Shown: positions 1-42,682 of the stretch, piece after piece
Layout of the letters: each line of letters begins with the position of its first letter
Position numbering within the stretch: position 1 is the stretch's first letter
DNA from: a virus
Lineage: Duplodnaviria > Heunggongvirae > Uroviricota > Caudoviricetes
Virus record (IMG/VR): IMGVR_UViG_2703718834_000012
Direction: 5' to 3' (one strand)
DNA: 42,682 nucleotides
Position numbers and translations under genes: made by a program
Notes under the pieces: generated by a model
What the model saw: only the letters and a program-made list of their open reading frames with translations
What the model was told of the DNA's origin: nothing
The model's database searches: none

Positions 1-549
1 TCAGCTAGCTGGAAACTTTTTATACAGAGTTGAGAGCCCTACTCCATACGTTTTTGATACGCTTTGTCGTGATTCACCGGTTGCCATCCGCTCCCCCATT
101 TCCCGCCATTGCTCATCCGTGAACTTAGGCCTGCGACCACCAACTCGCCCTTTTGCCCTGGCTACGGCCAGCCCTGCTAAGGTACGTTCGCTATTAAGAT
201 CAGATTCATATTGTGCTGCGGAAAGGATGTTACGAAAGTTATAGCGGCCGCTGGCTGTTTTGAGATCCACGCCATCGGTAATACTGCGGAAGTTGATACC
301 CTTTTCCTGTAACTGCTGGAACATCAACAGCGCATGCAGAACGTTGCGGCCTATCCTGTCCAGCTTCCAGACCACCAGTTCATCCCCCGGCTGCATAGTG
401 GCGATCAGCCGTTTTAGAACCGGCCGATTCGATTTCCTCCCGCTGGCATGCTCTTCAAAAATTTTCTCACAACCCGCTGACTTGAGCGCCGTTAGTTGCA
501 ATTCAGTATCCTGGTGGTTTGTTGATACTCGGGCATAACCGTAAATCAT
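1..549 (-). CDS. Serine recombinase / DNA invertase (Gin/Pin/Hin/Cin family)
   Basis: 182 aa from ATG at 547-549 with AGGAG RBS upstream; MIYGYARVSTNHQD... resolvase-type N-terminus and C-terminal HTH closely resemble Gin/Pin. Track ORF 1..732 is an in-frame upstream extension. Confidence 0.9.
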   Translation of the reverse strand: MIYGYARVSTNHQDTELQLTALKSAGCEKIFEEHASGRKSNRPVLKRLIATMQPGDELVVWKLDRIGRNVLHALLMFQQLQEKGINFRSITDGVDLKTASGRYNFRNILSAAQYESDLNSERTLAGLAVARAKGRVGGRRPKFTDEQWREMGERMATGESRQSVSKTYGVGLSTLYKKFPAS

Positions 550-620
550 GGGATTTCTCCTGTTATGAAAACAGGAGAAACGGCGAAGCATCACCAGATT
601 TTTGATGGTTATAAAAAAGG

Positions 621-635
621 TTGGTTTGGGAGAAG
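621..635. repeat. Inverted repeat, invertase-proximal crossover site of invertible tail-fibre segment
   Basis: ttggtttgggagaag at 621-635 is the exact reverse complement of 2447-2461; it sits at the codons VGLGEG of the silent fibre cassette. Confidence 0.7.
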
Positions 636-1078
636 GTGCTCCAGCTATTGGCGTTCCGTTCTTCTGGCCCTCCGCGGCAATGCCAAATACTGTAATCGAC
701 AGCTGGTCCGGTATGGTGTTTTTGAAGTTCAACGGGGCGAAATTTTCTGCCTCTGATTACCCTGTGCTGGCGAAAGTGTTTCCTTCGCTGGTATTACCTG
801 AAGCCCGCGGTGATTTCATTCGTATCTGGGATGACGGGCGAGGTGCAGATGGTGGTCGCGAATTATTAAGCTGGCAGGAAGCTACAAACTTTTCTCAGTT
901 TGCCGGGAATATAGGCGGAGGTGCGGGACACGCAATTAACTTTCATGATGGCATCGCCGGAAATCAGCCAGGATTTTCACGATTTAATTTCACCAGTAAC
1001 TCTGTGGGTGATGGTGTGAATTTTGTTGCTGTCAGACCGCGAAATATTGCATTTAACTTTCTGGTGAGGGCTAAATAA
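621..1078 (+). CDS. Silent alternative tail-fibre C-terminal cassette (expressed only after inversion)
   Basis: ORF 602..1078 has no RBS; its sequence becomes in-frame with the constant fibre N-terminus across the shared 15-bp repeat (KKVGLGEG vs TNLGLGEA); followed by a Tfa gene. Confidence 0.6.
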
Positions 1079-1671
1079 TGAAACCTGTTTTTGATAAAAA
1101 TGGGCTGGCTACAGTGCCGGGCGATATGCGTTGTTTTTATTATGATGCTGAAACATCTGAGTATACGGGCTGGTCTGATGAATATATTAATACTGGCGTA
1201 AGTATGCCCGCCTGTTCCACTGGTATTGACCCTGGCGAAAACATTCTGGGAAGAGTGGCAGTATTTACAGGTAAGGGATGGAGCCATGAAGAAGATCATC
1301 GCAATGAGACTGTTTACTCAATCGAAAATGGTGCTGCTGTTACAGTGGATTATATCGGTGCCATCAAAAACGGTTATGTCACGCTTTCACCGTTAACGCC
1401 ATATGATAAATGGGATGGTGAGAAATGGGTGACAGATACTGAGGCACAACACGGTGCCGCAGTAGAAGCGGCAGAAGCACAGCGCCAGTCACTGATTGAT
1501 GCTGCAATGGCTTCCATCAGTCTGATTCAGCTGAAATTACAGGCCGGGCGGAAGCTGACGCAGGCAGAAACAACCCGACTTAACGCCGTGCTGGATTACA
1601 TTGACGCGGTGACGGTAACAGATACCAGCACCGCGCCGGATGTCATCTGGCCTGAACTGCCGGAGGCGTAG
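1078..1671 (+). CDS. Tail fibre assembly protein (alternate copy)
   Basis: 197 aa; start overlaps the upstream stop (TAATG); C-terminal LDYIDAVTVTDTSTAPDVIWPELP motif typical of Tfa chaperones. Confidence 0.8.
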   Translation: MKPVFDKNGLATVPGDMRCFYYDAETSEYTGWSDEYINTGVSMPACSTGIDPGENILGRVAVFTGKGWSHEEDHRNETVYSIENGAAVTVDYIGAIKNGYVTLSPLTPYDKWDGEKWVTDTEAQHGAAVEAAEAQRQSLIDAAMASISLIQLKLQAGRKLTQAETTRLNAVLDYIDAVTVTDTSTAPDVIWPELPEA

Positions 1672-2083
1672 GCCATTCAATATCTGGAGCACTGGAAGTA
1701 TCGACCAGTTCCAGTGCGTCCAGATAATCCAGCCATAAATTATATTGCGCCAGTTCCTCACCTTTCAGACGACCAATAGCAGCCTTTCCTGGCCACTGCT
1801 TACTGTTAATATATTCATTAACTCGATTTATGAGTGCCTGTTTTTTTCGTTCCGCTTCTGACAGTTGTTCTTCATGAGTTAGCGGCGGTACGTCATCCCA
1901 TGCAGGATAGCCATCATCACCCGCAACTCTCACTTTCCCTGGAGGTGGGGACAGGTACTTAATAAATATATCCTCATCAACTTCAACTCCATTATGAGGC
2001 CATAACCCAGACTCCTTATACTGACTTTCCAGAGTAAATGGGTAAAACATATTAGTTTTTGCATCGTAAAGATATTTACTCAT
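1643..2083 (-). CDS. Tail fibre assembly protein (currently expressed copy)
   Basis: Start MSKYLYDAKTNMFYPF at ATG 2081-2083 with AGGAAGA RBS, directly after fibre stop; C-terminal LDYLDALELVDTSSAPDIEWP Tfa motif; 3' end overlaps the convergent Tfa gene. Confidence 0.8.
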   Translation of the reverse strand: MSKYLYDAKTNMFYPFTLESQYKESGLWPHNGVEVDEDIFIKYLSPPPGKVRVAGDDGYPAWDDVPPLTHEEQLSEAERKKQALINRVNEYINSKQWPGKAAIGRLKGEELAQYNLWLDYLDALELVDTSSAPDIEWPTPPAVQAR

Positions 2084-2084
2084 T

Positions 2085-2744
2085 TTATCTTCCTGTAGCA
2101 AACCAGCGGCAACCAGCGACAGTTGGAACATTGAAGGATGGATTTCCTTTATCAAGAGATCCCAGGTTCTCTGCTATGACATTTGAGTTAGTCAATTTAT
2201 AGAATTGCCATACTGACATTTTCCCTGCCACAGGAGCCTGGTCATGTTCATTAATAGAAATGACGGCTGTCGGAAATGGGATAGGAAAATTAATCAAAAC
2301 TTCATTTGTTGTGGCCTCAGTTAGCCCCCATTGTTCAATATAACCATCCGGGCTTCGTCTCCATCCCGTCGTTGTATCTCCCCCACACTCCCACGCTGAC
2401 ATATCAGGAATTTGGTTTTGCCCGTTACCCACATCCCGTTTTGCCGCTTCTCCCAAACCAAGGTTTGTGAGAGCCGTAGAAATCGCCGCTGCACCATCTG
2501 ATTTGATATCGGCAAATGGGTTTGCACGGCTCAGTGTGAGTTTTTGAATGGCTTTTAAAACCTGAGTCATATCGTTAATGTCGAGCGCCAATCCTGCTGA
2601 CTCTACGATATGCGCTAACTCTTCCTGCATGGCATTAAACGCTGCTGCCCGCAGCCTCGTTGCGGCAATACCACCAGCAACACTTCCATCAGTATATTTG
2701 CCATCCTGCGTTGCAGTGGCTTCGACTTGCCCGATTCGGAGCAT
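2085..2744 (-). CDS. Tail fibre protein (constant N-terminus outside, variable C-terminus inside the invertible segment)
   Basis: 219 aa with GAGGA RBS; follows the baseplate genes; the crossover repeat lies inside the coding sequence at 2447-2461. Confidence 0.75.
   Translation of the reverse strand: MLRIGQVEATATQDGKYTDGSVAGGIAATRLRAAAFNAMQEELAHIVESAGLALDINDMTQVLKAIQKLTLSRANPFADIKSDGAAAISTALTNLGLGEAAKRDVGNGQNQIPDMSAWECGGDTTTGWRRSPDGYIEQWGLTEATTNEVLINFPIPFPTAVISINEHDQAPVAGKMSVWQFYKLTNSNVIAENLGSLDKGNPSFNVPTVAGCRWFATGR
2447..2461. repeat. Inverted repeat, fibre-gene crossover site of invertible segment
   Basis: cttctcccaaaccaa, reverse complement of 621-635; part of an imperfect palindrome CTTCTCCCAAACC-AA-GGTTTGTGAGAG resembling gix/hix sites. 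Confidence 0.7.
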
Positions 2745-2795
2745 AGTTAATCCTCACTTAGTGTTAAGCGATAAAATCAGAGGGGGAAATATCAG

Positions 2796-3389
2796 TTATG
2801 AATAATTGAAAATGATGTTCAGATGGGATGGGGCAATTTTGTTGATTGAACACTCCAGTTGTTTATTGCCCCACGATGCGAGCGGATCTCCGCAGTAGGA
2901 CGCGCCAGCAAGCGAATACTTGATCGTTGTTTGTGGCGCATTTATCCGCCAGGTAAATGGCCACTCGTCACCGTTAAGCGCATCACCGCATACTGACATG
3001 CCACTCATAGCGGGCCGGAACTGTGTGATAGTGATGGTATAACCAAGAGCTGCAGCCACCCGGATGTAATAATCGCGGTTCAGGCCGCCGGTGCTGATTA
3101 ACTTTGCCACCACGGCGCGCTGGCGATCGCTGACGCCACCGGATTCACCAATCGCACAATCATCTGGTAACCCCAGAGAGCTTTCCCATTCTGACAACAT
3201 TACCGTCGCTGTAGGGGGAAAAGCACCAGTAATCAGGCTTTGCGCATCGTTGTCAGAACGCTGAAACGCGCTGCCCAGTGCCCGTAATACCGCAGCCTGT
3301 ACCGTTCTTTGCGACCGGGGCCACGCCCTGCCCGTCGGTAGCAGCGCACCAAGCGCACCGGCATAATCATTTTTTGAAAAGAGGCTCAT
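2796..3389 (-). CDS. Baseplate/tail protein, Mu gp48 / YmfQ (DUF2313)-like
   Basis: 197 aa; position between baseplate J-like gene and tail fibre; sequence resembles YmfQ-type proteins. Confidence 0.65.
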   Translation of the reverse strand: MSLFSKNDYAGALGALLPTGRAWPRSQRTVQAAVLRALGSAFQRSDNDAQSLITGAFPPTATVMLSEWESSLGLPDDCAIGESGGVSDRQRAVVAKLISTGGLNRDYYIRVAAALGYTITITQFRPAMSGMSVCGDALNGDEWPFTWRINAPQTTIKYSLAGASYCGDPLASWGNKQLECSINKIAPSHLNIIFNYS

Positions 3390-4528
3390 ACAAAATTCAC
3401 CCCGCCAAGCACCGGAATTTCGCCAACAGCAAAGGTGATATTGGCCGTCGGAGAGTTAAGAATATAGCCCGTCGTGCCGCTAACACCGCCGATACTCCCG
3501 TTAATATCAGAGAGGTAAACTTTCCCAGAACCATCAGGGTTAGCTTCATCAAAAAACAGCGCCGTCAGCGCGTCTTTTATCCCCTGAACTGTGGTGCTGT
3601 CGGCATTTTTGATCCCAGAGATTTCAATATTGATGACTTTCTTGATCGGGGAACATACGAAAACAATGGCAGTGTCTGTCTGCTGCGGATAGATGTGGTC
3701 GGCGACAGCGAGCTGGTCTCCGGTGGCTTTAACAGCCCCCCAGTCCTCAAGTTGGGATATTCCGTCGGTACCGACCGGAAACCCACCATTGTCATTCCGA
3801 TCACACATGATATACACGCCAACGGTCCCGGCCCCGTTCAGACGCCGCTTTACCCACGCGCGGGTGACGCCCGAAACCTCAAGCGCCCATTTTTTATAAT
3901 CGGCGTCGCTTCCACCCTGAGGCGGATTCTGCCATGCCAGCAAGCCACGACTGCGAAAATCCTCTTCCGTTTCAATATCGGCTCCGCCGGTCGCAGCGGA
4001 CAGTAACGTTACCTGTGGATCCACGCCAGCAATATTCGCGTCCAGGGTCATTATGGTCCCGGCATCAGCGTTACCGCGCGCGCCTCCACCCGTTACATCA
4101 CTGGTAATATCCGGCAGTATGGCCGTCACCGCGACGATACCAAATCCATCTGCCTGAATTTTAAGATCTGCATCCGTCCGGTACTGGTATCCGTCCCCGC
4201 GGTTAATGATCGAGCCAACAGGGATAATACAGTCAACACTGCCACTAGCCTGTACCGCAGGCGACTTCGCCGCTGCAGCTGGTTTTCTGAATACCTGCTT
4301 AAGGACCATCCACCCGGCGAGATACTCATCGGTAGAGGTAAACGGGTTTGTCTGCAGGGCAATATAGTCAAGGTAGGCGTAATGCAGATGCCCCATCCCC
4401 GCATCCATGTCAGCCAGTACCTTCAGGTTCGCGAAGCGCAGGAGCGCACCAACATCCTCAAGCTCCGCCTGCATAAATTTCCGGTTTCCGTCGCGGAGTT
4501 CGCTCAGCGTCGGTCGTTTAAACGGCAT
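3386..4528 (-). CDS. Baseplate J-like protein (Mu gp47-like)
   Basis: Trimmed to ATG 4526-4528 (MPFKRPTLSEL...) adjacent to upstream stop; size and position fit baseplate J. Confidence 0.7.
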   Translation of the reverse strand: MPFKRPTLSELRDGNRKFMQAELEDVGALLRFANLKVLADMDAGMGHLHYAYLDYIALQTNPFTSTDEYLAGWMVLKQVFRKPAAAAKSPAVQASGSVDCIIPVGSIINRGDGYQYRTDADLKIQADGFGIVAVTAILPDITSDVTGGGARGNADAGTIMTLDANIAGVDPQVTLLSAATGGADIETEEDFRSRGLLAWQNPPQGGSDADYKKWALEVSGVTRAWVKRRLNGAGTVGVYIMCDRNDNGGFPVGTDGISQLEDWGAVKATGDQLAVADHIYPQQTDTAIVFVCSPIKKVINIEISGIKNADSTTVQGIKDALTALFFDEANPDGSGKVYLSDINGSIGGVSGTTGYILNSPTANITFAVGEIPVLGGVNFV

Positions 4529-23029: not shown

Positions 23030-23509
23030 TCAATTTAAGCACTGCTCTTTGATGTATTCCTGCAAATATCCAACCTGTTTCGTCACTGTGACGATTCGCT
23101 CTCTGAGGGTGAAATAATCCCGTTCAGCGGAGTCAGTAAGTCGGGGGCCGGTAACATCGCCCAGGCCGCCGGTGCTGGTCGCTCCGTTCGCGGGACATCT
23201 GGCGTTGACGTGCAGCCCACACTTGCCAGTGCGAACACAACGCTGCAAATCATCAAGCTGCTTTTTAGCATCAGCTAAGTCCTTCGTGTATTTGGCATCC
23301 AGCACCGCTGCATCACGCTGGCGGATCTGCATGTCTTTGATGGTGGCGTTCGCCTGGTTAAGATTCTTAATGGCTTTATCGCGCTGGTCTTTGTAGGTGA
23401 TGGCGTTGCCGCGGTAGTGGTTAATAGCCCAAGCCATGGAAACCATCAGGCATATAACGACAGCACAGATAATTGCTGTTAATCGGCTCACTAATCTAAC
23501 CCCCAACAC
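23030..23509 (-). CDS. Spanin, inner-membrane subunit (Rz-like)
   Basis: 159 aa, N-terminal TM helix then coiled-coil-like region; Rz1-like ORF embedded in +1 frame. Confidence 0.75.
23083..23271 (-). CDS. Spanin, outer-membrane lipoprotein subunit (Rz1-like)
   Basis: 62 aa wholly embedded in Rz; lipobox LASVGC; proline-rich mature part. Confidence 0.7.
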
Positions 23510-24027
23510 GCCAGCGCGCTTTCCTGGTCCCGTCTCTCAACCTGACCATAGCAGCCATTCTTCTGGCCTTTGGTTAGTCGGCAATCGCGGCCACCGTCTT
23601 TGATCCACCAGCGGATTGCTTCACATGCCCCTTTACGATCACCGGCGTTGATGCGTTTATAAAAGGTAGAAGGGAAGCATTTACCAGGACCAATGTTGTA
23701 CGGGCAGAATGAGGCAATCCCCGCTTTCTGCGGTTCGGTCAGTGGTACCTGGATATTGCGGTCGACCCAAGCCAGCGCCTTGTTCAGCTCGCTGGCGTTC
23801 ACCTGATTACATTTCTCTGGCGATAGCCTCATACCTGGGGTAACAGGCTTGCCGTCAACCGTGGTAGCTCCCCGGCAAATCGTCCAGATACCGCTGCCAT
23901 CTTTGTACGCTGTAAGGCTGTTTCCCTCTTTCTCATTCAGAAACTGATCGAGAATGACGGATGCTGGCGCACCAGCAAGTACCAACCCCAGAACAGCAGC
24001 ACTTAATTTTGCTCTGGATCCCATCAC
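23491..24027 (-). CDS. SAR endolysin (T4 lysozyme-like muramidase)
   Basis: 178 aa; Gly/Ala-rich signal-arrest-release N-terminus followed by E..D..T catalytic region, as in phage 21 R. Confidence 0.85.
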
Positions 24028-24326
24028 TCACCTTCCTTTTGTAATGCCTCAACGACCACGCTTGCAGCCGCAGGACGTTCGTGAAGGGGTTTATCACCAA
24101 CGCCTTTCAGGTAGTCATTAACCATTTTTGTTCGCTTCTCGTCCTCTCTACGCCTGCGGTGGGCATCCACGCGACCATTGACATAGGAGGCAAACGAGAT
24201 AAGCAGACCAGCGGCGCCAAAGAACATGAACACCATATCCTGAGTGGTAAAACCAATGGCTGACGCCAGAGCTGCTACCCACGCGAAGAACTGCGTGAAA
24301 ATGTTCCCTGAATCATTCATTTTCAT
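24024..24326 (-). CDS. Holin (probable pinholin, dual-start MKM)
   Basis: 100 aa, two TM helices, charged C-terminus; directly upstream of SAR endolysin. Confidence 0.7.
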   Translation of the reverse strand: MKMNDSGNIFTQFFAWVAALASAIGFTTQDMVFMFFGAAGLLISFASYVNGRVDAHRRRREDEKRTKMVNDYLKGVGDKPLHERPAAASVVVEALQKEGE

Positions 24327-24394
24327 GGTCTCTCACCTCGCTGTGTGCGGGTGTTATTGAGGTAATAAAAAAGGCCGCTTGAGCGACCTCACGT

Positions 24395-25447
24395 TTATTC
24401 CCCTGTTAACGCCCTTATTTCCTCCACCGTCTGGCTAAACCTGTCCTCCTCGAGTTCAACGCCGATAGCCTGGCGGCCAAGTTCCAGCGCGATTTTCACG
24501 GTCGAACCGGACCCCATAAAGAAATCAGCCACCACATCACCAGGCTTACTGCTGGCGTTGATGATCTGCCGCAACATGTCAGCGGGTTTTTCGCATGGGT
24601 GTTTACCTGGGTAAAACTGAACGGGTTTATGTGTCCAGACGTCGGTATAAGGAACGGATACGGAAACAGAGAAATGCCGCCGAAGCGATTTGTACTCTTC
24701 GAGCAGCTCTGAATACTTGCGATTTAACGAATGCCACATAGCCACCAGCTGGTGGTGTGGTGTTGCCAGTTCGCCGTTCTGGTGCTTTTCGATGGCTACC
24801 TGCGTGAAAAGGGACTGAAGATTCCGGTAGTCTAATTCATTCGGTAATTGCCACTGGCTACCGCTGAACCAGTGAGACACCATGTTCTTCTTTCCAGTCG
24901 CATCGGCTATTTGTTTTGAGGTTATGCCAAGCGCTTCACGTGCATCCCGGAAATAAGAAATTAGGGGAGTCATTACATGCTGCTTCAGCTCGCTTCCCTT
25001 CTCCGCGTAACCGTCGCTCTTTGGTTTATACGGCCCCTGGTAATGCTCAGCGAAGAGGATGCGCTCTGTTGCAGGGAAGTAAGAGCGCAGACTCTCTTTA
25101 TTACAGCCATTCCAGCGGCCCGACGGTTTAGCCCAGATGATGTGGTTCAGGACGTTGAACCGCTCACGCATCATGATCTCAATGTCTGCCGCCAGGCGGT
25201 GACCGGAGAAAAGATAAAGACTGCCAGCAGGTTTAAGCACTCGCCAGAATTGTGCGAGGCACATATCAAGCCAGCGAAGATAATCCTCATCCCCTTTCCA
25301 CTGATTGTCCCAGCCGTTGGGTTTCACTTTGAAGTACGGCGGATCCGTGACTATCAGGTCAATGGAGTTATCAGGGAGAGTGGCGATGTATTGCAGGCTA
25401 TCAGCGTTGACTAACTCGACACTGTTTATATTTACAGTATTTTTCAT
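24395..25447 (-). CDS. DNA methyltransferase, beta-class amino-MTase (N6-adenine or N4-cytosine)
   Basis: 350 aa; N-terminal catalytic DPPY motif (IVTDPPYF) and C-terminal SAM-binding FxGxG (DFFMGSGST). Confidence 0.85.
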   Translation of the reverse strand: MKNTVNINSVELVNADSLQYIATLPDNSIDLIVTDPPYFKVKPNGWDNQWKGDEDYLRWLDMCLAQFWRVLKPAGSLYLFSGHRLAADIEIMMRERFNVLNHIIWAKPSGRWNGCNKESLRSYFPATERILFAEHYQGPYKPKSDGYAEKGSELKQHVMTPLISYFRDAREALGITSKQIADATGKKNMVSHWFSGSQWQLPNELDYRNLQSLFTQVAIEKHQNGELATPHHQLVAMWHSLNRKYSELLEEYKSLRRHFSVSVSVPYTDVWTHKPVQFYPGKHPCEKPADMLRQIINASSKPGDVVADFFMGSGSTVKIALELGRQAIGVELEEDRFSQTVEEIRALTGE

Positions 25448-25616
25448 AGATCAATAAGCGTAACTCTGATAGGCTCTCTTTGCTTTTGCGCTAAAGCAAT
25501 GGGCCTTGGTTAGCTTGTGACCTGAAAGCATGAGCTGATGGCTGGTGGGTGCTCCAACATCCACCAGCCGCCCATTTTCACAGCAAAATACCTCCGAAAT
25601 GGAGGTGCGAAGGCAT

Positions 25617-36458: not shown

Positions 36459-39400
36459 ATGGAATTCTTTAATGTGGTTAAAGCCACTCAGAAATCCGGA
36501 AAGCAAGATGCAGTGGTCTGGTTCACTGCTAAAACCGAGGCTCGCGCCAATCTGATGCTGGATGTTGCGCTGGAAGATGCAGGTATCGAAACAGGTCGGG
36601 GTAAGGACTACGCCAAACCGATTCGCACTGATTTCCCAGTTGTCGACGGCCTGCCGAAAGAAGGTGAAGTTGATTTTACCTGGTGTGATCGCTACGAGCT
36701 TCAGGACGATGGGCGCACCTGGCTGCCAAAAGCCGCTGGTGTGTCTACTGGTTCCGTTTACGCCCCCTACACACCTACTCCGACCGTAATCGTTGAAGAT
36801 GCGACTGCGTCCGAAATTGTCCCGGTTGAAAACCGTACTCCAGCGGTCCGCTTTGCCGTCCATCTGATGAACGATAAATACCAAACCCACGTCACTAAAG
36901 AGCAGCAGTTGGCTGCCAGCGAAATGTCACTGGATGAAGGCAATACATATCTCCATAGCCTGCTTGTGGCAAGGAACGATGTGCCCGCGACCGCCAAACT
37001 CAGCCTGAATGCTGAGTGGAAAATGATTCGGGCGGTTAAGGACATTTTCACACCAGACGAAGAGCACGAACCAAGATTGATCGCTGCATTCATGTCTGAC
37101 TGGGTGAACACCGATGCCGGTGACCGCAATCAACTGGTAGAAGACTGGCGCAGTGGTAAGTTGCAGTTGCTCAAAACTGAAACCAGCAACGCTGCTGACG
37201 TTACAACGGGTCAAGATCTCACTGTTGAGGACGGTATCCAGACCGACGAGAACGGCCGGGCAGAAGGTGGCGTCGTTGATGGTGAAGTCGATACCGAAGA
37301 GCAATCCCAGCAGACACAGCAACCGAACCTGATCGTTGTTGCCACCCTGCCATTCCGCCAGCGCGTACTGGCTCAGTTCATCGGTGATGGTGAATATCTC
37401 TATCACATCGACGCAGGGCAGAAAAATGAGATTGTCCGCCTTGAGATGGACACCGATGACGCGTACGTCCAGAACCTGCTGCTGGCAGCTGAGAATGTGG
37501 AAGCATTCAAAAAAGCCATTGAGCACGATATTCATAAAGTCGTGAATGCCGTTAAGAAAGTCTTCCCTGTCGATGGAAAAATCCCTGAACTCGCAACCTT
37601 AATCCAGTTTTTGAAATTGTGGTTCGCTACAGATCACATCGACCGCGGTATCCTCGTTCGCGAATGGGCCGCCGGTAATCGCATCAGTAGTGTGCAGCGT
37701 ACTGATTCCGGCACTAATGCCGACGGCGGTTACGTCACTGACCGTGGACCTGACGCACACCACACACTGGACACTCTCGATTTAGAGATTGCGTGTGCCC
37801 TTCTGCCTATGGACTTCAACCACTTCGAGATCCCGGGCAGCATTCTTCGTCGCGCTAAAGAAATCGTGACCAAAAAAGAAGAACCATGGAAATCATGGAG
37901 CAACATCCTGCGCAATCAGCCAGGCGTTCTGGGTGTTAACCGCACGGCTATTTTTAACCTGGTACGTATCGCACCGGAAAATATTCATTTAACTCCTGTC
38001 GCTCACCTGGAATTTGTTAACCAGACCATGACAGCCGCGTTCAATTCCGCGGTCGAGTTATTGCCGTTGCATGAGGCTGAACCCGCAGCACAGGAAATTC
38101 CCCAACCTGAAGGTAAGGAGTCTCCGCGCAAATCCTTCTGCACTCACGAAGAGAACCTGCAACGCGTGCGTGAAGAAGGAGCACGCCGCCGCGCAGAGGA
38201 AGCGGCAGCACAACCGCAGAAAGTCGAACAAGAACTGGTTAAAAATGTCGGCAACGGAATATTCGACGTTACGGCTTTGCTGCAGAACTCAGCAACTCAT
38301 GGCACGAAAAAGGCTACGGAGACCACCAGCAATGTGCAGGTTCAAGAAACTGTCAGTGATGAAAAACAAGCTGGTGATGAAGTACAGCCAGGCGAAAGCA
38401 GTCTGGAGTCTGGTGAAGAGTCAGATACCAGCCAGAAGGACGATGTAAACCAGAATACGGATTCTGTCGCCAAAAATAGCGATTCTGTAAGCCAAACCGA
38501 ACCAGTTGCAGCACAAACCGAGCCAGAAGCGCAATCTGACGAACCAGCTGTTGTTTATCCCGCTTATTTCGAGCCAGGCCGCTATGAAGGGCTGCCAAAC
38601 GAGGTTTACCACGCCGCCAACGGCATCAGCTCAACCCAGGTGAAAGATGCGCGCGTTTCGCTGATGTACTTCAATGCGCGCCACGTAGAGAAAACCATCG
38701 TCAAAGAGCGCTCAGCGGTGCTGGACATGGGCAACTTGGTGCATGCGCTGGCGTTGCAGCCTGAACTACTGGACGCAGAATTCAGCGTTGAACCGGTGAT
38801 CCCTGAAGGCGCATTCACAACGGCCGCGACCCTGCGCGCCTTTATCGATGAGCACAATGCCAGCCTGCCGGCGCTGCTGTCTGCCGACGACATCAAGGTG
38901 TTACTGGAAGAGTACAACGCCACCCTGCCGCCGCAGGTTCCGCTTGGCGCTAACCTGGAAGAAACGGCACAGAACTATATGGCGCTGCCAGCTGACTTCC
39001 AGCGTATTGATGGTGACCAGAAGCAGACGGCGACGGCAATGAAGGCATGCATTAAAGAGTACAACGCCACCCTGCCGCCGCCGGTTAAAACCAGCGGCAG
39101 CCGTGACGCGCTGCTGGAGCAGTTGGCAATCATCAACCCTGACCTTGTGGCTCAGGAAGCACAGAAACCGGCACCACTGAAAGTGTCCGGTACCAAAGCA
39201 GACATGATCCAGGCCGTAAAGGCAGTCAAACCAGATGCCGTATTTGCCGACGAACTGCTGGATGCCTGGCGCGATAACCCGGAAGGAAAAGTGCTGGTCA
39301 CCCGCCAGCAGCTGAGCACCGCGCTGAATATTCAAAAAGCGCTTCTGGCACACCCGACCGCCGGCATGCTGCTGACCCACCCTAGCCGAGCCGTTGAGGT

Positions 39401-39848
39401 GAGCTACTTTGGTTTTGACGAGGAGACGGGCTTGGAAGTTCGTGTGCGCCCTGACCTTGAGATCGACCTGGATGGCGTGCGTATAGGTGCAGACCTGAAA
39501 ACCATCAGCATGTGGAATGTTAAGCAGGAAAGCCTGCGCGCCAGGCTACACCGGGAAATTATTGAACGTGATTATCACCTGAGCGCGGCTATGTACTGCG
39601 AAACCGCAGCGCTGGATCAGTTCTTCTGGATTTTCGTCAACAAAGACGAGAACTACCACTGGATCGCCATCATCGAGGCATCCGCTGAACTACTGGAGCT
39701 GGGTATGCTCGAGTACCGCAAAGCGATGCGCAATATCGCAACCGGATTCGACACAGGTGAATGGCCAGCGCCAATCACTGCTGACTACACCGACGAACTG
39801 AACGACTTCGACCTGCGCCGCCTTGAAGCGCTGCGTACTCAGGCATAA
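36459..39848 (+). CDS. recE: Exonuclease VIII, RecE-like
   Basis: 1129 aa; N-terminal segments (TDFPVVDGLPKEGEVDFTWCDRYEL, GNRISSVQRTDSGTNADGG) parallel Rac RecE; C-terminal PD-(D/E)xK-like core. Confidence 0.85.
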   Translation: MEFFNVVKATQKSGKQDAVVWFTAKTEARANLMLDVALEDAGIETGRGKDYAKPIRTDFPVVDGLPKEGEVDFTWCDRYELQDDGRTWLPKAAGVSTGSVYAPYTPTPTVIVEDATASEIVPVENRTPAVRFAVHLMNDKYQTHVTKEQQLAASEMSLDEGNTYLHSLLVARNDVPATAKLSLNAEWKMIRAVKDIFTPDEEHEPRLIAAFMSDWVNTDAGDRNQLVEDWRSGKLQLLKTETSNAADVTTGQDLTVEDGIQTDENGRAEGGVVDGEVDTEEQSQQTQQPNLIVVATLPFRQRVLAQFIGDGEYLYHIDAGQKNEIVRLEMDTDDAYVQNLLLAAENVEAFKKAIEHDIHKVVNAVKKVFPVDGKIPELATLIQFLKLWFATDHIDRGILVREWAAGNRISSVQRTDSGTNADGGYVTDRGPDAHHTLDTLDLEIACALLPMDFNHFEIPGSILRRAKEIVTKKEEPWKSWSNILRNQPGVLGVNRTAIFNLVRIAPENIHLTPVAHLEFVNQTMTAAFNSAVELLPLHEAEPAAQEIPQPEGKESPRKSFCTHEENLQRVREEGARRRAEEAAAQPQKVEQELVKNVGNGIFDVTALLQNSATHGTKKATETTSNVQVQETVSDEKQAGDEVQPGESSLESGEESDTSQKDDVNQNTDSVAKNSDSVSQTEPVAAQTEPEAQSDEPAVVYPAYFEPGRYEGLPNEVYHAANGISSTQVKDARVSLMYFNARHVEKTIVKERSAVLDMGNLVHALALQPELLDAEFSVEPVIPEGAFTTAATLRAFIDEHNASLPALLSADDIKVLLEEYNATLPPQVPLGANLEETAQNYMALPADFQRIDGDQKQTATAMKACIKEYNATLPPPVKTSGSRDALLEQLAIINPDLVAQEAQKPAPLKVSGTKADMIQAVKAVKPDAVFADELLDAWRDNPEGKVLVTRQQLSTALNIQKALLAHPTAGMLLTHPSRAVEVSYFGFDEETGLEVRVRPDLEIDLDGVRIGADLKTISMWNVKQESLRARLHREIIERDYHLSAAMYCETAALDQFFWIFVNKDENYHWIAIIEASAELLELGMLEYRKAMRNIATGFDTGEWPAPITADYTDELNDFDLRRLEALRTQA

Positions 39849-39853
39849 GGGGA

Positions 39854-40972
39854 ATGATGATGGAAAACACGAATATCGTAACCGCTGAACAGCAGACTCC
39901 AAACACGATCTCAGCCAGCAATGCCATTTTCAACGTGCAGGCTTTAACCCAGCTTCAGTCTGTCGCCGGGTTGATGGCACAGGCAGCCGTAACGGTGCCT
40001 GAGCACCTCCGCGGCAATCCGGCAGACTGCATGGCCATCATCATGCAGGCGATGCAGTGGGGTATGAACCCTTACGCCGTGGCGCAAAAGACGCACCTGG
40101 TTAACGGTGTCCTGGGATACGAAGCGCAACTGGTTAATGCGGTGATCTCCAGCTCAAACGCCATCGTTGGCCGCTTTCACTATGAGTACGAGGGCGACTG
40201 GTCGAAATGTGCCAGCAGCCGCGAGATAACCGTTAAAAAGCCTGCGAAAGGTGGCGGGACGTACGACAAGAAAGAAATGGTACGCGGTTGGGAAAGTGCT
40301 GATGAACAAGGACTGTCGGTACGGGTAGGTGCCGTTATTCGCGGTGAAAGTGATATCACCTGGGGAGAGCCTGTTTTCCTCTCCAGCGTAATCACACGTA
40401 ATTCTCCACTTTGGGTATCAAACCCGAAACAGCAGATCGCTTATCTGGCACTCAAATACTGGGCGCGCCTATATTGCCCTGCAGTTGTTCTTGGTGTGTA
40501 CACCCCTGATGAGATTGAACAGCGCACAGAAAAAGAGATCAACCCAACGCCGCAACGCGTTAGCCTGGCTGATATCTCAGGTGACACCGTCACAACCACG
40601 CAAAGCGCACAGGAATCGTCGGTAAATGTCGACTCTCTTGCCGATGATTTCCGCGAACGCATCGAATCTGCTCAGGACGTGGATAGCGCCAAATCGCTGC
40701 GTGCCGACATTGAAACGGCGAAAGCTACGCTGGGATCCGCACTATTCACCGAGCTGAAAAACAAAGCCGTAAAGCGTTATTACCTAGTGGATGCACGCAA
40801 CAAGGTTGAGGAGGCTATTAAATCCCTGCCCCAGCCCGACGAGCCGCATGCAGCCGAACGGTTCGCTGAAGCCGAGCGCATGCTTGCATCTTCAAAGCGT
40901 CACTTAGGCGATGAACTGCACGATCAATTCAGCATCACCCTGGCGGATATGAAACCGGAATACGTGGCCTGA
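39854..40972 (+). CDS. recT: RecT/Red-beta family single-strand annealing protein
   Basis: 372 aa immediately downstream of recE; triple ATG start; sequence of RecT type. Confidence 0.75.
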   Translation: MMMENTNIVTAEQQTPNTISASNAIFNVQALTQLQSVAGLMAQAAVTVPEHLRGNPADCMAIIMQAMQWGMNPYAVAQKTHLVNGVLGYEAQLVNAVISSSNAIVGRFHYEYEGDWSKCASSREITVKKPAKGGGTYDKKEMVRGWESADEQGLSVRVGAVIRGESDITWGEPVFLSSVITRNSPLWVSNPKQQIAYLALKYWARLYCPAVVLGVYTPDEIEQRTEKEINPTPQRVSLADISGDTVTTTQSAQESSVNVDSLADDFRERIESAQDVDSAKSLRADIETAKATLGSALFTELKNKAVKRYYLVDARNKVEEAIKSLPQPDEPHAAERFAEAERMLASSKRHLGDELHDQFSITLADMKPEYVA

Positions 40973-41010
40973 CGAGACCGGGAGGGGTAACCCTCCCTCA
41001 AGGAGATTAT

Positions 41011-41253
41011 ATGCGACTGATCAATCGAGGAAGTAAGCAATCACCTTTAGCTCGCCAAGCATGCGACATCGCGCTGGCAGCTCACTTGCAAACATATGGC
41101 GACTATGGGCGAAGCAAGATGAAAGAGACTTATACGGTGAAGGTTGAAGGCGTGAAAGTCTGGGTGGAGGTGGTGAACCGAAAGGCGAGCTACGTGGCCA
41201 CAGCGATGACCGGCATGCGCCGTCTCCGCTCCCTGCCCGGGCAGGTTGGTTGA
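41011..41253 (+). CDS. Hypothetical protein
   Basis: 80 aa, AAGGAG RBS; preceded by perfect hairpin GGGAGGG-GTAA-CCCTCCC. Confidence 0.45.
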   Translation: MRLINRGSKQSPLARQACDIALAAHLQTYGDYGRSKMKETYTVKVEGVKVWVEVVNRKASYVATAMTGMRRLRSLPGQVG

Positions 41254-41294
41254 AAAAGATTTTGAATGGCCCGAACGGGCAACTGGAGAGAGCT

Positions 41295-41492
41295 ATGGAT
41301 GATATTTTGGTAACGTCAGACCTGACCAGTCGCTACAAAATTTCACGCAAAACCCTTTGGTCATGGCAAAGTGCAGACACAATGCCTCGGGGCTTCGTAT
41401 GCCCGTTCCCACCCCCTGACTGGCCCGGCAACCCTAACCGCTGGCGCTCTGAGTCAATCAAAGAGTGGGAGGATAAAAAGAAGATAAATTAA
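41295..41492 (+). CDS. Excisionase / AlpA-like HTH regulator
   Basis: 65 aa from ATG 41295 with GGAGAGAG RBS; convergent with integrase, stop codons overlap (TTAA). Confidence 0.6.
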
Positions 41493-42682
41493 CTGAAGGG
41501 CTCTCCGATGATCTCTTCAAGATGGCTCTGCCAAACGCGGAGCCAGTGTTTCTGATCATCGATATAGTCATGAAGGTTGTAATGCGCCATAACCCCCACC
41601 ATCTGATGCCCGAGCAGCTTTTCAATTACGTGCGGCGGGCAACCTAACTCAGAGAGATTTGTGGCTATCGTCCGCCTCATATCATGAAGCGACCACTCTG
41701 CCATACCTGTTCCATTCCAAATAGAACGGGCGTAATTGGATGCCACAGGTGAATGAACGGGCGAATCTTTGATCCCGCCATCAATTTTACGTTGTGAAGT
41801 CACCAGGTGATTGGTGTTTATTTTCTTGAGGTGATTTCTGACCAGGTTAACGGCGGCGTCTGAGAGTCCCCTTCTAATATGTACCCGAGTTTTATAACTG
41901 CCCGCAGGCACGACCCACTCATTATCATCCAATCGAAACCATGATCTCTCACTAAGTCGAATCTCAGCCGTACGGCATCCGGTAAGCATAATAAATTTCA
42001 CCAGGAAAACGGACTCTATCGACATATGGCTTTTCAACCACTGATAGATTTTGCGCAGATCGTCATCGTCCATCCTGCGAGTTCTCTTTTTAGGCTTTTG
42101 CCCGACATCAGATGGCAGTAATCCCTCGAGTGGGTTTGAGGCGATCACACTTCTGTTAACGCAGAACCTAAACGCCCGTTTGCACAGCGAAAGCATGTAA
42201 TGAGCCATCACCCTGCTTTCTATAGAATCGAAGACGTTGATCCAGTGCATTTTCGCTGTGTTATCGACTTTGACATTCTTCATCGGTTCGGCGATATGTT
42301 TCTCAAACACCTGGCGATAGTAATCGACTTTAACTAGCCCGTTAGCGATACAGTGCCTTTCAATCCAGTAATTGAACGCTTCGGCAACGGACATCGCTTC
42401 CTGTCGGGTCTGCTTATCCAGCTTCACCTGCTCTCGCGGATCCAGTCCCTCAGTTAACCAGTTTCTGAATTGTTGGCGACGCTCTCTTGCCTGGGTGATA
42501 CTCATTGCAGGATAATCACCAACATTGAGTTTTACCGCTTTACCGGCCCAGCGATACCGATAGAAAAATGATATTTTTCCGGCCTGGCTGATTCTGGCGT
42601 TGAGCCCGTGCGAATCAGAAATAATCTCGATATCATCTCTTTTCTTGCCGAGCGCCTTCCTGAGCTTTGTGTCGGTGATCAT
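41489..42682 (-). CDS. int: Tyrosine integrase (P4-like, with N-terminal DUF4102-type arm domain)
   Basis: 397 aa; start ATG is the last codon of the window; C-terminal HDMRRT...LGH...HY catalytic signature. Confidence 0.9.

What the first reader, a model, noticed from the sequence alone, without database searches (positions are those of the whole stretch)
1..2760. Invertible tail-fibre segment (Gin/Pin-type host-range switch) with two alternative fibre C-termini and two Tfa genes
An exact 15-bp inverted repeat (621-635 and 2447-2461) lies in-frame inside the tail-fibre gene and at the start of a promoterless alternative C-terminal cassette. Between the repeats are two convergent, 3'-overlapping Tfa genes, and a Gin/Pin-family invertase sits just outside. 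Inversion would swap fibre C-terminus and chaperone together, as in Mu G, P1 C and e14 P. The outer half-sites differ, so the exact crossover position is uncertain.
Basis: partly seen in the sequence, partly recalled or inferred. Interest (0 to 1): 0.55.

Follow-up and report, generated by a model that had tools for sequence, protein, structure and literature searches.

The report
Invertible tail-fibre switch in E. coli prophage
This is an ordinary but fully intact example of a known phage trick: a 1.84-kb DNA segment that a neighbouring invertase flips, giving the prophage's tail fibre one of two alternative tips, each with its own assembly chaperone. Public genomes hold the same prophage with the segment in both orientations.

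Summary
An exact 15-bp inverted repeat (621-635 / 2447-2461) is the core of two 26-bp Hin/Gin/Pin-type crossover sites (609-634 and 2448-2473). It matches the published e14 P-segment repeat. It lies in frame (LGLGE) in a 219-aa tail-fibre gene and at the head of a silent alternative C-terminal cassette. Two convergent tail-fibre-assembly genes, overlapping by 29 nt, lie between the sites. A complete 182-aa serine invertase with all catalytic residues lies 59 nt outside. The window is an E. coli prophage next to yciI-tonB. Two independent assemblies carry a sister copy of this prophage with flanks identical to a third (0 mismatches in 6.6 kb) and the 1841-bp interior as its exact reverse complement. 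The fusion protein predicted after flipping the window's own segment also exists exactly in public data. The architecture is that of the e14 P region, so this is a new member of a known kind. The one unusual point is the invertase, a PinL (phi80) type only 51-55% identical to Gin/Cin/Pin. It lacks the residues that contact Fis in Hin, and I did not find the conserved enhancer Fis sites. Its regulation may therefore differ, but that is untested.

The parts
1..549 (-). Serine DNA invertase, 182 aa, PinL (phi80) type; the stop codon is at 1-3
   Evidence: Pfam Resolvase 3.6e-39 and HTH_7 1.5e-09. Best solved relative is Gin (3UJ3, E 1.4e-56). R7, S9, D64, R65, R68, E121 and R122 are conserved. 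It is 99-100% identical to the phi80 PinL and mEp237 invertases and 51-55% to Gin, Cin and e14 Pin.
554..580 (-). Perfect 11-bp stem-loop whose 3' arm holds the invertase Shine-Dalgarno sequence (AGGAGAAA, 4 nt before the ATG). A likely translational damper of the invertase.
   Evidence: (I20) and 60: RNA fold of 535-600 (this hairpin plus an adjacent 5-bp one) -22.7 kcal/mol, z -4.5. phi80 annotates the same element as IR3. phi80 carries a compensatory T-A to C-G change in the outer pair.
609..634 (+). Invertase-proximal 26-bp crossover site, TTATAAAAAAGG TT GGTTTGGGAGAA. The core dinucleotide is at 621-622 and the outer half-site is degenerate.
   Evidence: The inner half-site is identical to those of e14 and phi80. 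The e14 repeat is published as TTGGTTTGGGAGAAGG (PMC12529663).
620..1078 (+). Silent alternative fibre C-terminus (Sv', 152 aa after the junction; weak tail-collar match). The ORF is open from an in-frame ATG at 605.
   Evidence: It is 98.7% identical to the fibre tip of P2-like phage 500465-2, 94% to the mEp213 side tail fibre tip and 41% to e14 StfE.
1078..1671 (+). Tail-fibre assembly chaperone paired with the silent cassette (197 aa)
   Evidence: Pfam Caudo_TAP 1.6e-26. It is 63.5% identical to e14 TfaE. The exact protein is on 13 contigs.
1643..2083 (-). Tail-fibre assembly chaperone paired with the expressed cassette (146 aa). It overlaps the other Tfa by 29 nt at the 3' ends.
   Evidence: Pfam Caudo_TAP 1.3e-34. 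Gene calls appear in L005. The C-terminal half is 70% identical to e14 TfaP.
2085..2459 (-). Currently expressed variable fibre C-terminus (Sv, gp53-like C-terminal domain)
   Evidence: Pfam Gp53-like_C 8.6e-12.
2448..2473 (-). Fibre-internal 26-bp crossover site, read on the minus strand as CTCTCACAAACC TT GGTTTGGGAGAA. The core is at 2460-2461, which are positions 2-3 of the Leu95 codon.
   Evidence: The e14 stfP site is CTCTCGAAAACC TT GGTTTGGGAGAA.
2462..2744 (-). Constant N-terminal part of the tail fibre (94 aa), presumably the baseplate-attachment part
   Evidence: It is 45-49% identical to the e14 StfP N-terminus. It is invariant in 11 related loci while the C-termini differ.
2796..3389 (-). 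YmfQ / Mu gp48-like baseplate protein immediately upstream, with baseplate J, gp46 and gp45 homologues further upstream. Context only, not part of the switch.
   Evidence: Pfam Phage_Mu_Gp48 1.2e-32 and Baseplate_J 3.2e-56.

Best explanation
The 1841-bp segment 621-2461 is a site-specific invertible segment of the e14 P-region type in an apparently intact E. coli prophage. The tail-fibre gene is transcribed on the minus strand as part of the late baseplate operon. Its first 94 codons are constant. At codon 95 it crosses a 26-bp recombination site into the segment. In the orientation seen here it continues into a gp53-like tip (219 aa in all), followed by a 146-aa Tfa chaperone. The small serine invertase encoded 59 nt outside the segment is expected to bind the two inverted 26-bp sites. 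It would then cut at the central TT/AA dinucleotides (621-622, 2460-2461) and rotate the half-complexes by 180 degrees. After inversion the constant part is fused in frame to the other tip (246 aa in all, collar-like), followed by its own 197-aa chaperone, and the first tip and chaperone move to the unexpressed position. A lysogen population would then release virions with either of two receptor-binding tips. Shown here: the sites, the reading frames, the intact invertase, and the existence of both orientations in nature with base-perfect junctions. Inferred: that the adjacent invertase is the catalyst, the exact cut position (by homology with hix/gix), and that the two tips recognise different receptors.
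For: The repeat and the 26-bp sites are shown. The repeat equals the experimentally inverted e14 P-segment repeat (PMC12529663). The invertase is Gin-like over its full length with all catalytic residues. L004 versus L026/L027 has 0/611 and 0/6013 flank mismatches and an interior that is an exact reverse complement, 0/1841. The window versus L026 has a flipped interior with 26/1841 mismatches and flanks with 5/6624. The exact predicted flipped protein, P0002, is encoded in the same prophage at the same yciI locus. Six of 8 further predicted flips from sister loci also exist exactly. The outer half-sites stay with the flanks in all 11 loci while the cassettes appear at either end. The e14 gene order is identical, including the 29-nt Tfa overlap.
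Against: No read-level data for this isolate were available. At DNA level the window's exact allele (L005, 100% over 8744 nt) was seen only in one orientation. The contig that encodes the exact flipped protein (L012) has a different partner cassette. The recombinational enhancer expected in the 5' end of Gin/Hin-type invertase genes is not recognisably conserved, and the Fis-contact residues are replaced. How the invertase is activated is therefore unclear. Invertases from other prophages could act in trans, as PinQ does on e14. No receptor specificity was tested.
Confidence: 0.9

Rival explanations
1. The segment does invert at these sites, but the catalyst in vivo is mainly an invertase supplied in trans by another resident prophage (P2-like, Qin/Rac-type Pin). 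The adjacent PinL-type gene would be weak or inactive.
For: The same segment (98% identical, bounded at 616-621 and 2470-2472) sits next to a different 197-aa invertase in P2-like prophages. PinQ of Qin inverts the e14 P segment more than PinE does (PMC12529663). The PinL-type enzyme lacks the Fis-contact residues.
Against: The adjacent gene is complete and all catalytic residues are conserved. The identical protein is kept on at least 1000 contigs. It keeps its position beside the site in every sister locus.
Confidence: 0.12
2. The system is a fossil. The orientation differences among strains are rare, old events, or result from homologous recombination between the 15-bp repeats or with other prophages. 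The segment is effectively fixed in any one strain.
For: The interiors are mosaic (93-98% identical, with half-modules swapped independently) while the flanks are 99.9-100% identical, so general recombination with other prophages clearly occurs. phi80 and HK225 keep only an orphan invertase and one site.
Against: A base-perfect flip with zero substitutions in 8.4 kb of flanks plus interior implies a very recent event. Fifteen bp is below the length RecA needs for efficient exchange (established knowledge). The junctions coincide with canonical 26-bp invertase sites.
Confidence: 0.05
3. In the lysogen the main selected function is not phage host range. Instead the free C-terminal cassette in the invertase-proximal position is expressed and acts on the host surface, like the receptor-masking anti-phage effect reported for e14 StfE2.
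For: In both orientations an in-frame ATG (605) in the fixed flank opens the cassette ORF. e14 has the same arrangement. StfE2, the chimera made there by inversion, was reported to block T2 adsorption (PMC12529663).
Against: There is no Shine-Dalgarno sequence within reach of ATG 605 and no promoter-like site above chance (the sequence). Unlike e14, this prophage looks complete, so virion host range is a sufficient explanation. A single study supports the e14 effect.
Confidence: 0.08

Closest known systems
Invertible P region of the E. coli K-12 cryptic prophage e14 (stfP-tfaP / tfaE-stfE, pinE)
   Same: The gene order is identical: baseplate J, YmfQ, a short fibre with a constant N-terminus of about 95 aa, Tfa, a convergent Tfa overlapping by 29 nt, an inverted silent cassette, and the invertase. 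The repeat is the same (TTGGTTTGGGAGAAG[G]) and the 26-bp sites nearly so, with an identical inner half-site. The segment length is similar (1797 vs 1841 bp). An in-frame ATG precedes the silent cassette in both.
   Different: The proteins are only distantly related: constant part 45-49%, collar cassette 41%, Tfa proteins 63-70%, invertase 55%. e14 is a defective remnant, whereas this is a full 42.7-kb prophage with head, sheath, baseplate, lysis, replication and integration genes. The invertase belongs to the PinL branch, not the Gin/Cin/Pin branch.
Phage Mu G segment / Gin and phage P1 C segment / Cin
   Same: The logic is the same: a constant fibre N-terminus, two alternative C-termini each with its own chaperone (U/U'), 26-bp inverted sites of the same consensus, and the invertase just outside the segment. 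A Mu-like baseplate (gp45-48 homologues) lies upstream.
   Different: The Mu and P1 segments are 3 kb or more, with long fibres of about 500 to 1000 aa. No sequence similarity to the fibre parts here was detected. The core dinucleotide is TC in gix and TT here. Gin and Cin are 51-52% identical to this invertase. The Mu U and U' genes do not overlap.
phi80 pinL and the HK225 / mEp237 invertase module
   Same: The invertase protein is 99-100% identical, and the hairpin (IR3) and the left crossover site are the same. The integrase and yciI attachment module and the RecE/RecT genes are also shared.
   Different: In those siphoviruses the invertase is an orphan. Only one site and a fragment of a cassette remain (annotated as a pseudogene in phi80), so nothing can invert. 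Here the complete two-site segment is present.
Invertible fibre segments of P2-like prophages (e.g. Escherichia phage 500465-2; EPEC P2-like loci of Goldberg et al. 2014)
   Same: The collar cassette and Tfa pair is the same (96-99% identical), and in some genomes the whole segment is 98% identical. Flipping within cultures was shown for P2-like loci (PMC4272514).
   Different: The constant fibre part is different and much longer (400-500 aa), the invertase is different (195-197 aa), and the tail module is of P2 type.

Membership tests
Hin/Gin/Cin/Pin (Din) DNA-inversion systems | Small serine recombinase: N-terminal catalytic domain with the active-site Ser9/10 and Arg/Asp/Glu set, and a C-terminal HTH | tested here: met
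   Pfam Resolvase and HTH_7. Full-length alignment to Gin 3UJ3, E 1.4e-56. R7, S9, D64, R65, R68, E121, R122, F87 and F105 are conserved.
Hin/Gin/Cin/Pin (Din) DNA-inversion systems | Two 26-bp crossover sites in inverted orientation, each made of two imperfect 12-bp half-sites around an identical asymmetric 2-bp core | tested here: met
   Site 609-634 is TTATAAAAAAGG-TT-GGTTTGGGAGAA. The reverse complement of 2448-2473 is CTCTCACAAACC-TT-GGTTTGGGAGAA. Compare gix TTATCCAAAACC-TC-GGTTTACAGGAA and e14 CTCTCGAAAACC-TT-GGTTTGGGAGAA.
Hin/Gin/Cin/Pin (Din) DNA-inversion systems | Recombinational enhancer with two Fis sites 48 bp apart inside the 5' end of the invertase gene | tested here: inconclusive
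   At the positions where gin, cin and pin share TATCAACAAATGA[AC]C (nt 23-37) and G[TC]GCAGGATG[TC]GA[AG]C (nt 71-85), the window has TATCAACAAACCACC and CAGCGGGTTGTGAGA. The second has lost both terminal G/C. The placement of the Fis sites rests on my memory of the hin enhancer, and my crude scan was noisy.
Hin/Gin/Cin/Pin (Din) DNA-inversion systems | Residues reported as uniquely conserved in Fis/enhancer-dependent invertases: Hin K47, K/R48, K/R51 (helix B) and Q151, R154, L155 (DBD helix 1) (PMC3798978) | tested here: not met
   K46 and R47 are present, but the Hin K51 position is Ala50. The Q151/R154/L155 positions are E150/E153/R154. Gin, Cin and e14 Pin all keep Q, R and L.
Hin/Gin/Cin/Pin (Din) DNA-inversion systems | Close sequence kinship with the founding members (Gin, Cin and Pin are 75-82% identical to each other) | tested here: not met
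   Identity to Gin, Cin and e14 Pin is 51.1%, 52.2% and 54.9%. This is a sister branch (PinL type), not a member of the tight group.
Hin/Gin/Cin/Pin (Din) DNA-inversion systems | Both orientations of the segment occur | tested here: met
   An exact flip between assemblies with identical flanks. Exact predicted fusion proteins are found for 7 of 9 loci. Within-culture switching was not testable.
e14 P-region-type tail-fibre switch | YmfQ, a short fibre with a constant N-terminus of about 95 aa, a crossover site in frame, a variable tip and Tfa, an inverted Tfa and tip, then the invertase | tested here: met
   The gene tables of the window and of e14 agree. The frame through LGLGE is kept in all 11 loci and for both orientations.
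Phage tail-fibre host-range switch (function) | The two tips confer different adsorption specificities | not testable with these tools
   The only evidence is that the tips belong to different families (Gp53-like_C vs collar-like) and that the collar tip serves as the fibre tip in mEp213 and a P2-like phage.

The most novel reading that the evidence does not exclude
The PinL-type invertase that drives this switch is regulated differently from Hin/Gin/Cin/Pin. It would be naturally independent of, or only loosely coupled to, the Fis-bound enhancer. It has Asn at the position of Hin Phe105; in Hin, the F105N mutant promotes Fis-independent inversion and cleavage (PMC4513852). It has Arg at His107, Tyr at Met115 and Ala at Lys51, and a charge reversal (E, R) at the Fis-contact pair Arg154/Leu155. 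The distal Fis site conserved in gin, cin and pin is not recognisable. Control might instead come from the stable hairpin that buries the invertase ribosome-binding site.
Probability: 0.2. Interest if true: 0.5.

Novelty: new member of a known kind. Interest (0 to 1): 0.25.

Why it matters
The value is mostly annotation and housekeeping. It identifies a working, complete instance of the e14-type fibre switch in a common E. coli prophage integrated at yciI. It explains the orphan pinL, single site and cassette fragment of phi80 and HK225 as the remnant of such a switch. It also shows that the whole segment, and each tip-plus-chaperone half of it, moves between unrelated tail modules, with boundaries at the crossover sites. 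In practice, genome comparisons and assemblies of these strains will show orientation polymorphism and contig breaks here. The fibres are also often misnamed 'integrase'. If the invertase proves Fis-independent, that would be a modest addition to serine-recombinase biology.

Tried and rejected
(1) I searched complete E. coli genomes with the native and with the in-silico flipped 3.4-kb region. No record holds the native arrangement over at least 80% of the query, and only one (Z142-1, 86% coverage) holds the flipped one, because the interiors are mosaic. Exact protein look-ups and the contigs behind them were what worked. (2) L012, which encodes the exact flipped fusion, is not a simple flip of the window. 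Its partner cassette differs. (3) A home-made Fis-site scan of the invertase 5' region gave many weak hits and no convincing 48-bp pair. A literature search by enhancer sequence strings found nothing useful. (4) The distribution of window versus phi80 substitutions along the invertase gene, tried as a test for an embedded DNA element, was uninformative. The differences cluster at nt 273-363 as a recombination patch. (5) I looked for extra crossover sites (a shufflon) in the window and found none: only two matches, plus two chance-level 3-mismatch hits far away. (6) Promoter and terminator scans of 1-3400 were at chance level. (7) My first tblastn of the silent cassette used the wrong frame and was redone. 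My first Tfa start (2086) was wrong; the correct start is 2083. (8) NCBIfam has no model for the fibres or the Tfa proteins.
Full report
OBSERVATION. The repeat exists as described. TTGGTTTGGGAGAAG is at 621-635 on the plus strand and at 2447-2461 on the minus strand. There are no other copies in the 42,682-bp window even with two mismatches allowed, and dinucleotide-preserving shuffles give a mean of 0.20 matches. By my arithmetic, about 0.005 exact 15-nt inverted pairs are expected in 3.4 kb.

The surrounding genes are also as described.
- c(1..549) encodes a 182-aa protein with Resolvase and HTH_7 domains.
- 602/605..1078 (+) is an ORF that begins just outside the left repeat and has a weak tail-collar match.
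- 1078..1671 (+) and c(1643..2083) are two Caudo_TAP tail-fibre assembly genes. They converge and overlap by 29 nt.
- c(2085..2744) is a 219-aa fibre with a Gp53-like C-terminal domain.
- Upstream on the minus strand lie homologues of Mu gp48 (YmfQ), baseplate J, gp46 and gp45.

The repeat is in frame in both fibre ORFs. It encodes (L)GLGE at residues 95-99 of the expressed fibre and the same residues at the head of the silent cassette.

THE SITES. Each repeat is the inner part of a 26-bp site with the layout of hix, gix, cix and pix sites: 12-bp half-site, 2-bp core, 12-bp half-site.
- Window left site, 609-634: TTATAAAAAAGG TT GGTTTGGGAGAA.
- Window right site, reverse complement of 2448-2473: CTCTCACAAACC TT GGTTTGGGAGAA.
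- Mu gix: TTATCCAAAACC TC GGTTTACAGGAA.
- e14 stfP site: CTCTCGAAAACC TT GGTTTGGGAGAA.
- e14 invertase-proximal site: TTTTCATAAACG TT GGTTTGGGAGAA.

A degenerate outer half-site next to the invertase is therefore normal for this group. It does not make the crossover uncertain. By homology with Hin and Gin (established mechanism: a 2-nt staggered cut at the core), exchange is expected at 621-622 and 2460-2461, which are positions 2-3 of the Leu95 codon. The published repeat of the e14 P segment, which has been inverted experimentally by PinE and PinQ, is TTGGTTTGGGAGAAGG. That is the window's repeat plus one base (PMC12529663).

THE INVERTASE. It aligns end to end with Gin (PDB 3UJ3, E 1.4e-56). 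It keeps R7, S9, D64, R65, R68, E121 and R122, and also F87 and F105, the equivalents of Hin F88 and F106. There is no sign of inactivation. The identical protein is recorded on at least 1000 contigs.

It does not belong to the tight Gin/Cin/Pin cluster. Those three are 75-82% identical to one another, whereas this protein is 51-55% identical to each. It is 99-100% identical to the PinL invertase of phi80 and to the invertase of mEp237; HK225's invertase gene is 99.7% identical at DNA level.

Residues that McLean et al. (PMC3798978) describe as uniquely conserved in Fis/enhancer-dependent invertases are partly replaced. The Hin K51 position is Ala. Hin Q151, R154 and L155 are E, E and R here, while Gin, Cin and e14 Pin keep Q, R and L. 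On helix E, Hin F105 is Asn, H107 is Arg, M109 is Ile and M115 is Tyr. In Hin, F105N gives Fis-independent inversion and cleavage (PMC4513852).

From my own recollection, the Hin enhancer has its Fis sites near nt 26-40 and 74-88 of hin. At the matching positions gin, cin and pin share conserved 15-mers, and in the window the distal one has lost both terminal G/C. This is suggestive only. I could not verify the enhancer coordinates in the library, and my scan was noisy.

EVIDENCE THAT THE SEGMENT FLIPS. The window is an E. coli prophage beside yciI-tonB. L005 (GCA_001575945.1) is 100% identical over 8744 nt.

I predicted the protein that would result from flipping 621-2461: 246 aa, made of the constant residues 1-94 plus the collar cassette. 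That exact sequence is in the public protein collection as P0002. It is encoded in the same prophage at the same chromosomal site, with flanks 99.95% identical (L012). Repeating this for eight sister loci, six further predicted flip products exist exactly.

In all 11 oriented loci the outer half-sites stay with the flanks, while a given cassette head appears either at the expressed end or at the silent end.

The cleanest case is L004 (GCA_916179755.1), which has the window's orientation, against L026 (GCA_025437175.1) and L027 (ERR11147597). There are 0 mismatches in 611 nt of the left flank and 0 in 6013 nt of the right flank. The 1841-bp interior is the exact reverse complement, with 0 mismatches. 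Relative to the window, L026 is the flipped form with 26/1841 interior differences and 5/6624 flank differences. A base-perfect inversion bounded by the two sites, with no other change in 8.4 kb, is what site-specific inversion produces. It is hard to obtain any other way.

MOSAICISM AND PORTABILITY. The interiors differ more than the flanks (93-98% against 99.9-100%). Each half, a tip plus its Tfa, is exchanged independently.
- The whole segment, at 98% identity and bounded at 616-621 and 2470-2472, lies in P2-like prophages next to a different invertase and a longer fibre.
- The collar tip plus Tfa is 96-99% identical in P2-like phage 500465-2, which has its own invertase.
- The collar tip forms the C-terminus of the side tail fibre of the siphovirus mEp213, which has no invertase. 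The homology there starts exactly at nt 621.

This fits the long-standing view of horizontal exchange of fibre modules. The crossover-site/LGLGE motif marks the exchange boundary.

CONTEXT. The rest of the window encodes a lambda-type portal, gpA-type terminase and E-type capsid protein. It also encodes a contractile sheath, a Mu-like baseplate, an O-like replication protein, a DNA methylase, RecE/RecT and a tyrosine integrase. It therefore looks like a complete hybrid prophage. No sequenced phage isolate matches its structural region at DNA level. Its integrase, yciI attachment and invertase module is that of phi80 and HK225. In those phages only one site and a cassette fragment survive, so the present element shows what that orphan module derives from.

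COMPARISON AND MEMBERSHIP. It works like Mu G/Gin, P1 C/Cin and e14 P/Pin. In architecture and site sequence it is an e14-P-type switch. The e14 proteins are 41-70% identical to those here, and Mu S/S' and P1 S show no detectable similarity. The invertase meets the catalytic and site criteria of the DNA-invertase subclass. It fails the Fis-contact-residue criterion and the close-kinship criterion, and the enhancer criterion is unresolved. I therefore file the system as a new member of a known kind, driven by a sister-branch (PinL-type) invertase.

UNCERTAINTIES.
- Ongoing switching in this particular isolate has not been observed.
- Which invertase acts in vivo is inferred.
- The receptor specificities of the two tips are unknown.
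- 'Silent' is an assumption. An in-frame ATG at 605 opens the cassette ORF in either orientation, as in e14, where the equivalent chimera StfE2 was reported to block T2 adsorption. Against that, no ribosome-binding site or promoter is evident.

VERDICT. The biology is well known, so interest is low to moderate (0.25). The only thread with some novelty is the possibly different regulation of the PinL-type invertase.

Noticed in passing
window 554-580 (minus-strand RNA); phi80 L019 4555-4581: A perfect 11-bp stem with a 5-nt loop lies between the invertase start and the crossover site. Its 3' arm contains the invertase Shine-Dalgarno sequence (the 535-600 fold: -22.7 kcal/mol, z -4.5). phi80 annotates the same element as IR3 and carries a compensatory T-A to C-G change in the outer pair. 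It probably keeps invertase translation low.
   Followed up: partly
window 605-1078; e14 L021 5120-5656: An in-frame ATG in the fixed flank, five codons before the crossover-site residues, opens whichever cassette sits in the 'silent' position. e14 has the same feature, and its chimera StfE2 was reported to block phage T2 adsorption (PMC12529663).
   Followed up: partly
L003 5133-5873 and many proteins (e.g. P0033, P0039, P0047): NCBI annotation names the collar-type 246-250-aa tail-fibre proteins 'integrase'. They have no integrase domain, and NCBIfam and Pfam give no such hit. This looks like a propagated misannotation.
   Followed up: partly
window 1-549 and 36459-42682; phi80 L019; HK225 L025: The invertase, the integrase (41489-42682), RecE (36459-39848, 1129 aa) and RecT (39854-40972) form the same integration and recombination module as in phi80 and HK225, which integrate at yciI. 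In those phages the invertase is an orphan with one site and a cassette fragment.
   Followed up: partly
L007, L008, L009, L010 (short-read contigs ending at window positions about 976, 1074 and 1739): Several short-read assemblies of this prophage break inside the invertible segment. This is expected if reads support both orientations or if the Tfa 3' parts are repeated in other prophages. I did not distinguish between the two.
   Followed up: no
window 1590-1607 / 1716-1733: An 18-nt inverted repeat (83% complementary) comes from the conserved C-terminal motif (LDYIDA / LDYLDA) of the two convergent Tfa genes. It could serve as a substrate for homologous exchange of half-modules.
   Followed up: no
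window about 23495-25612: The lysis and DNA-methyltransferase region (N6_N4_Mtase ORF 24395-25447) is 92-96% identical to phages Eeyore and Flotzy. The head and tail genes have no close DNA match among sequenced phage isolates.
   Followed up: no
L028 (assembly labelled DH5alpha, NZ_CM135829.1, 13048-24904): This 4.83-Mb record labelled DH5alpha carries a P2-like prophage with the same invertible segment at 98% identity. MG1655's e14 is only distantly similar, so the strain label or its prophage content may deserve a check.
   Followed up: no
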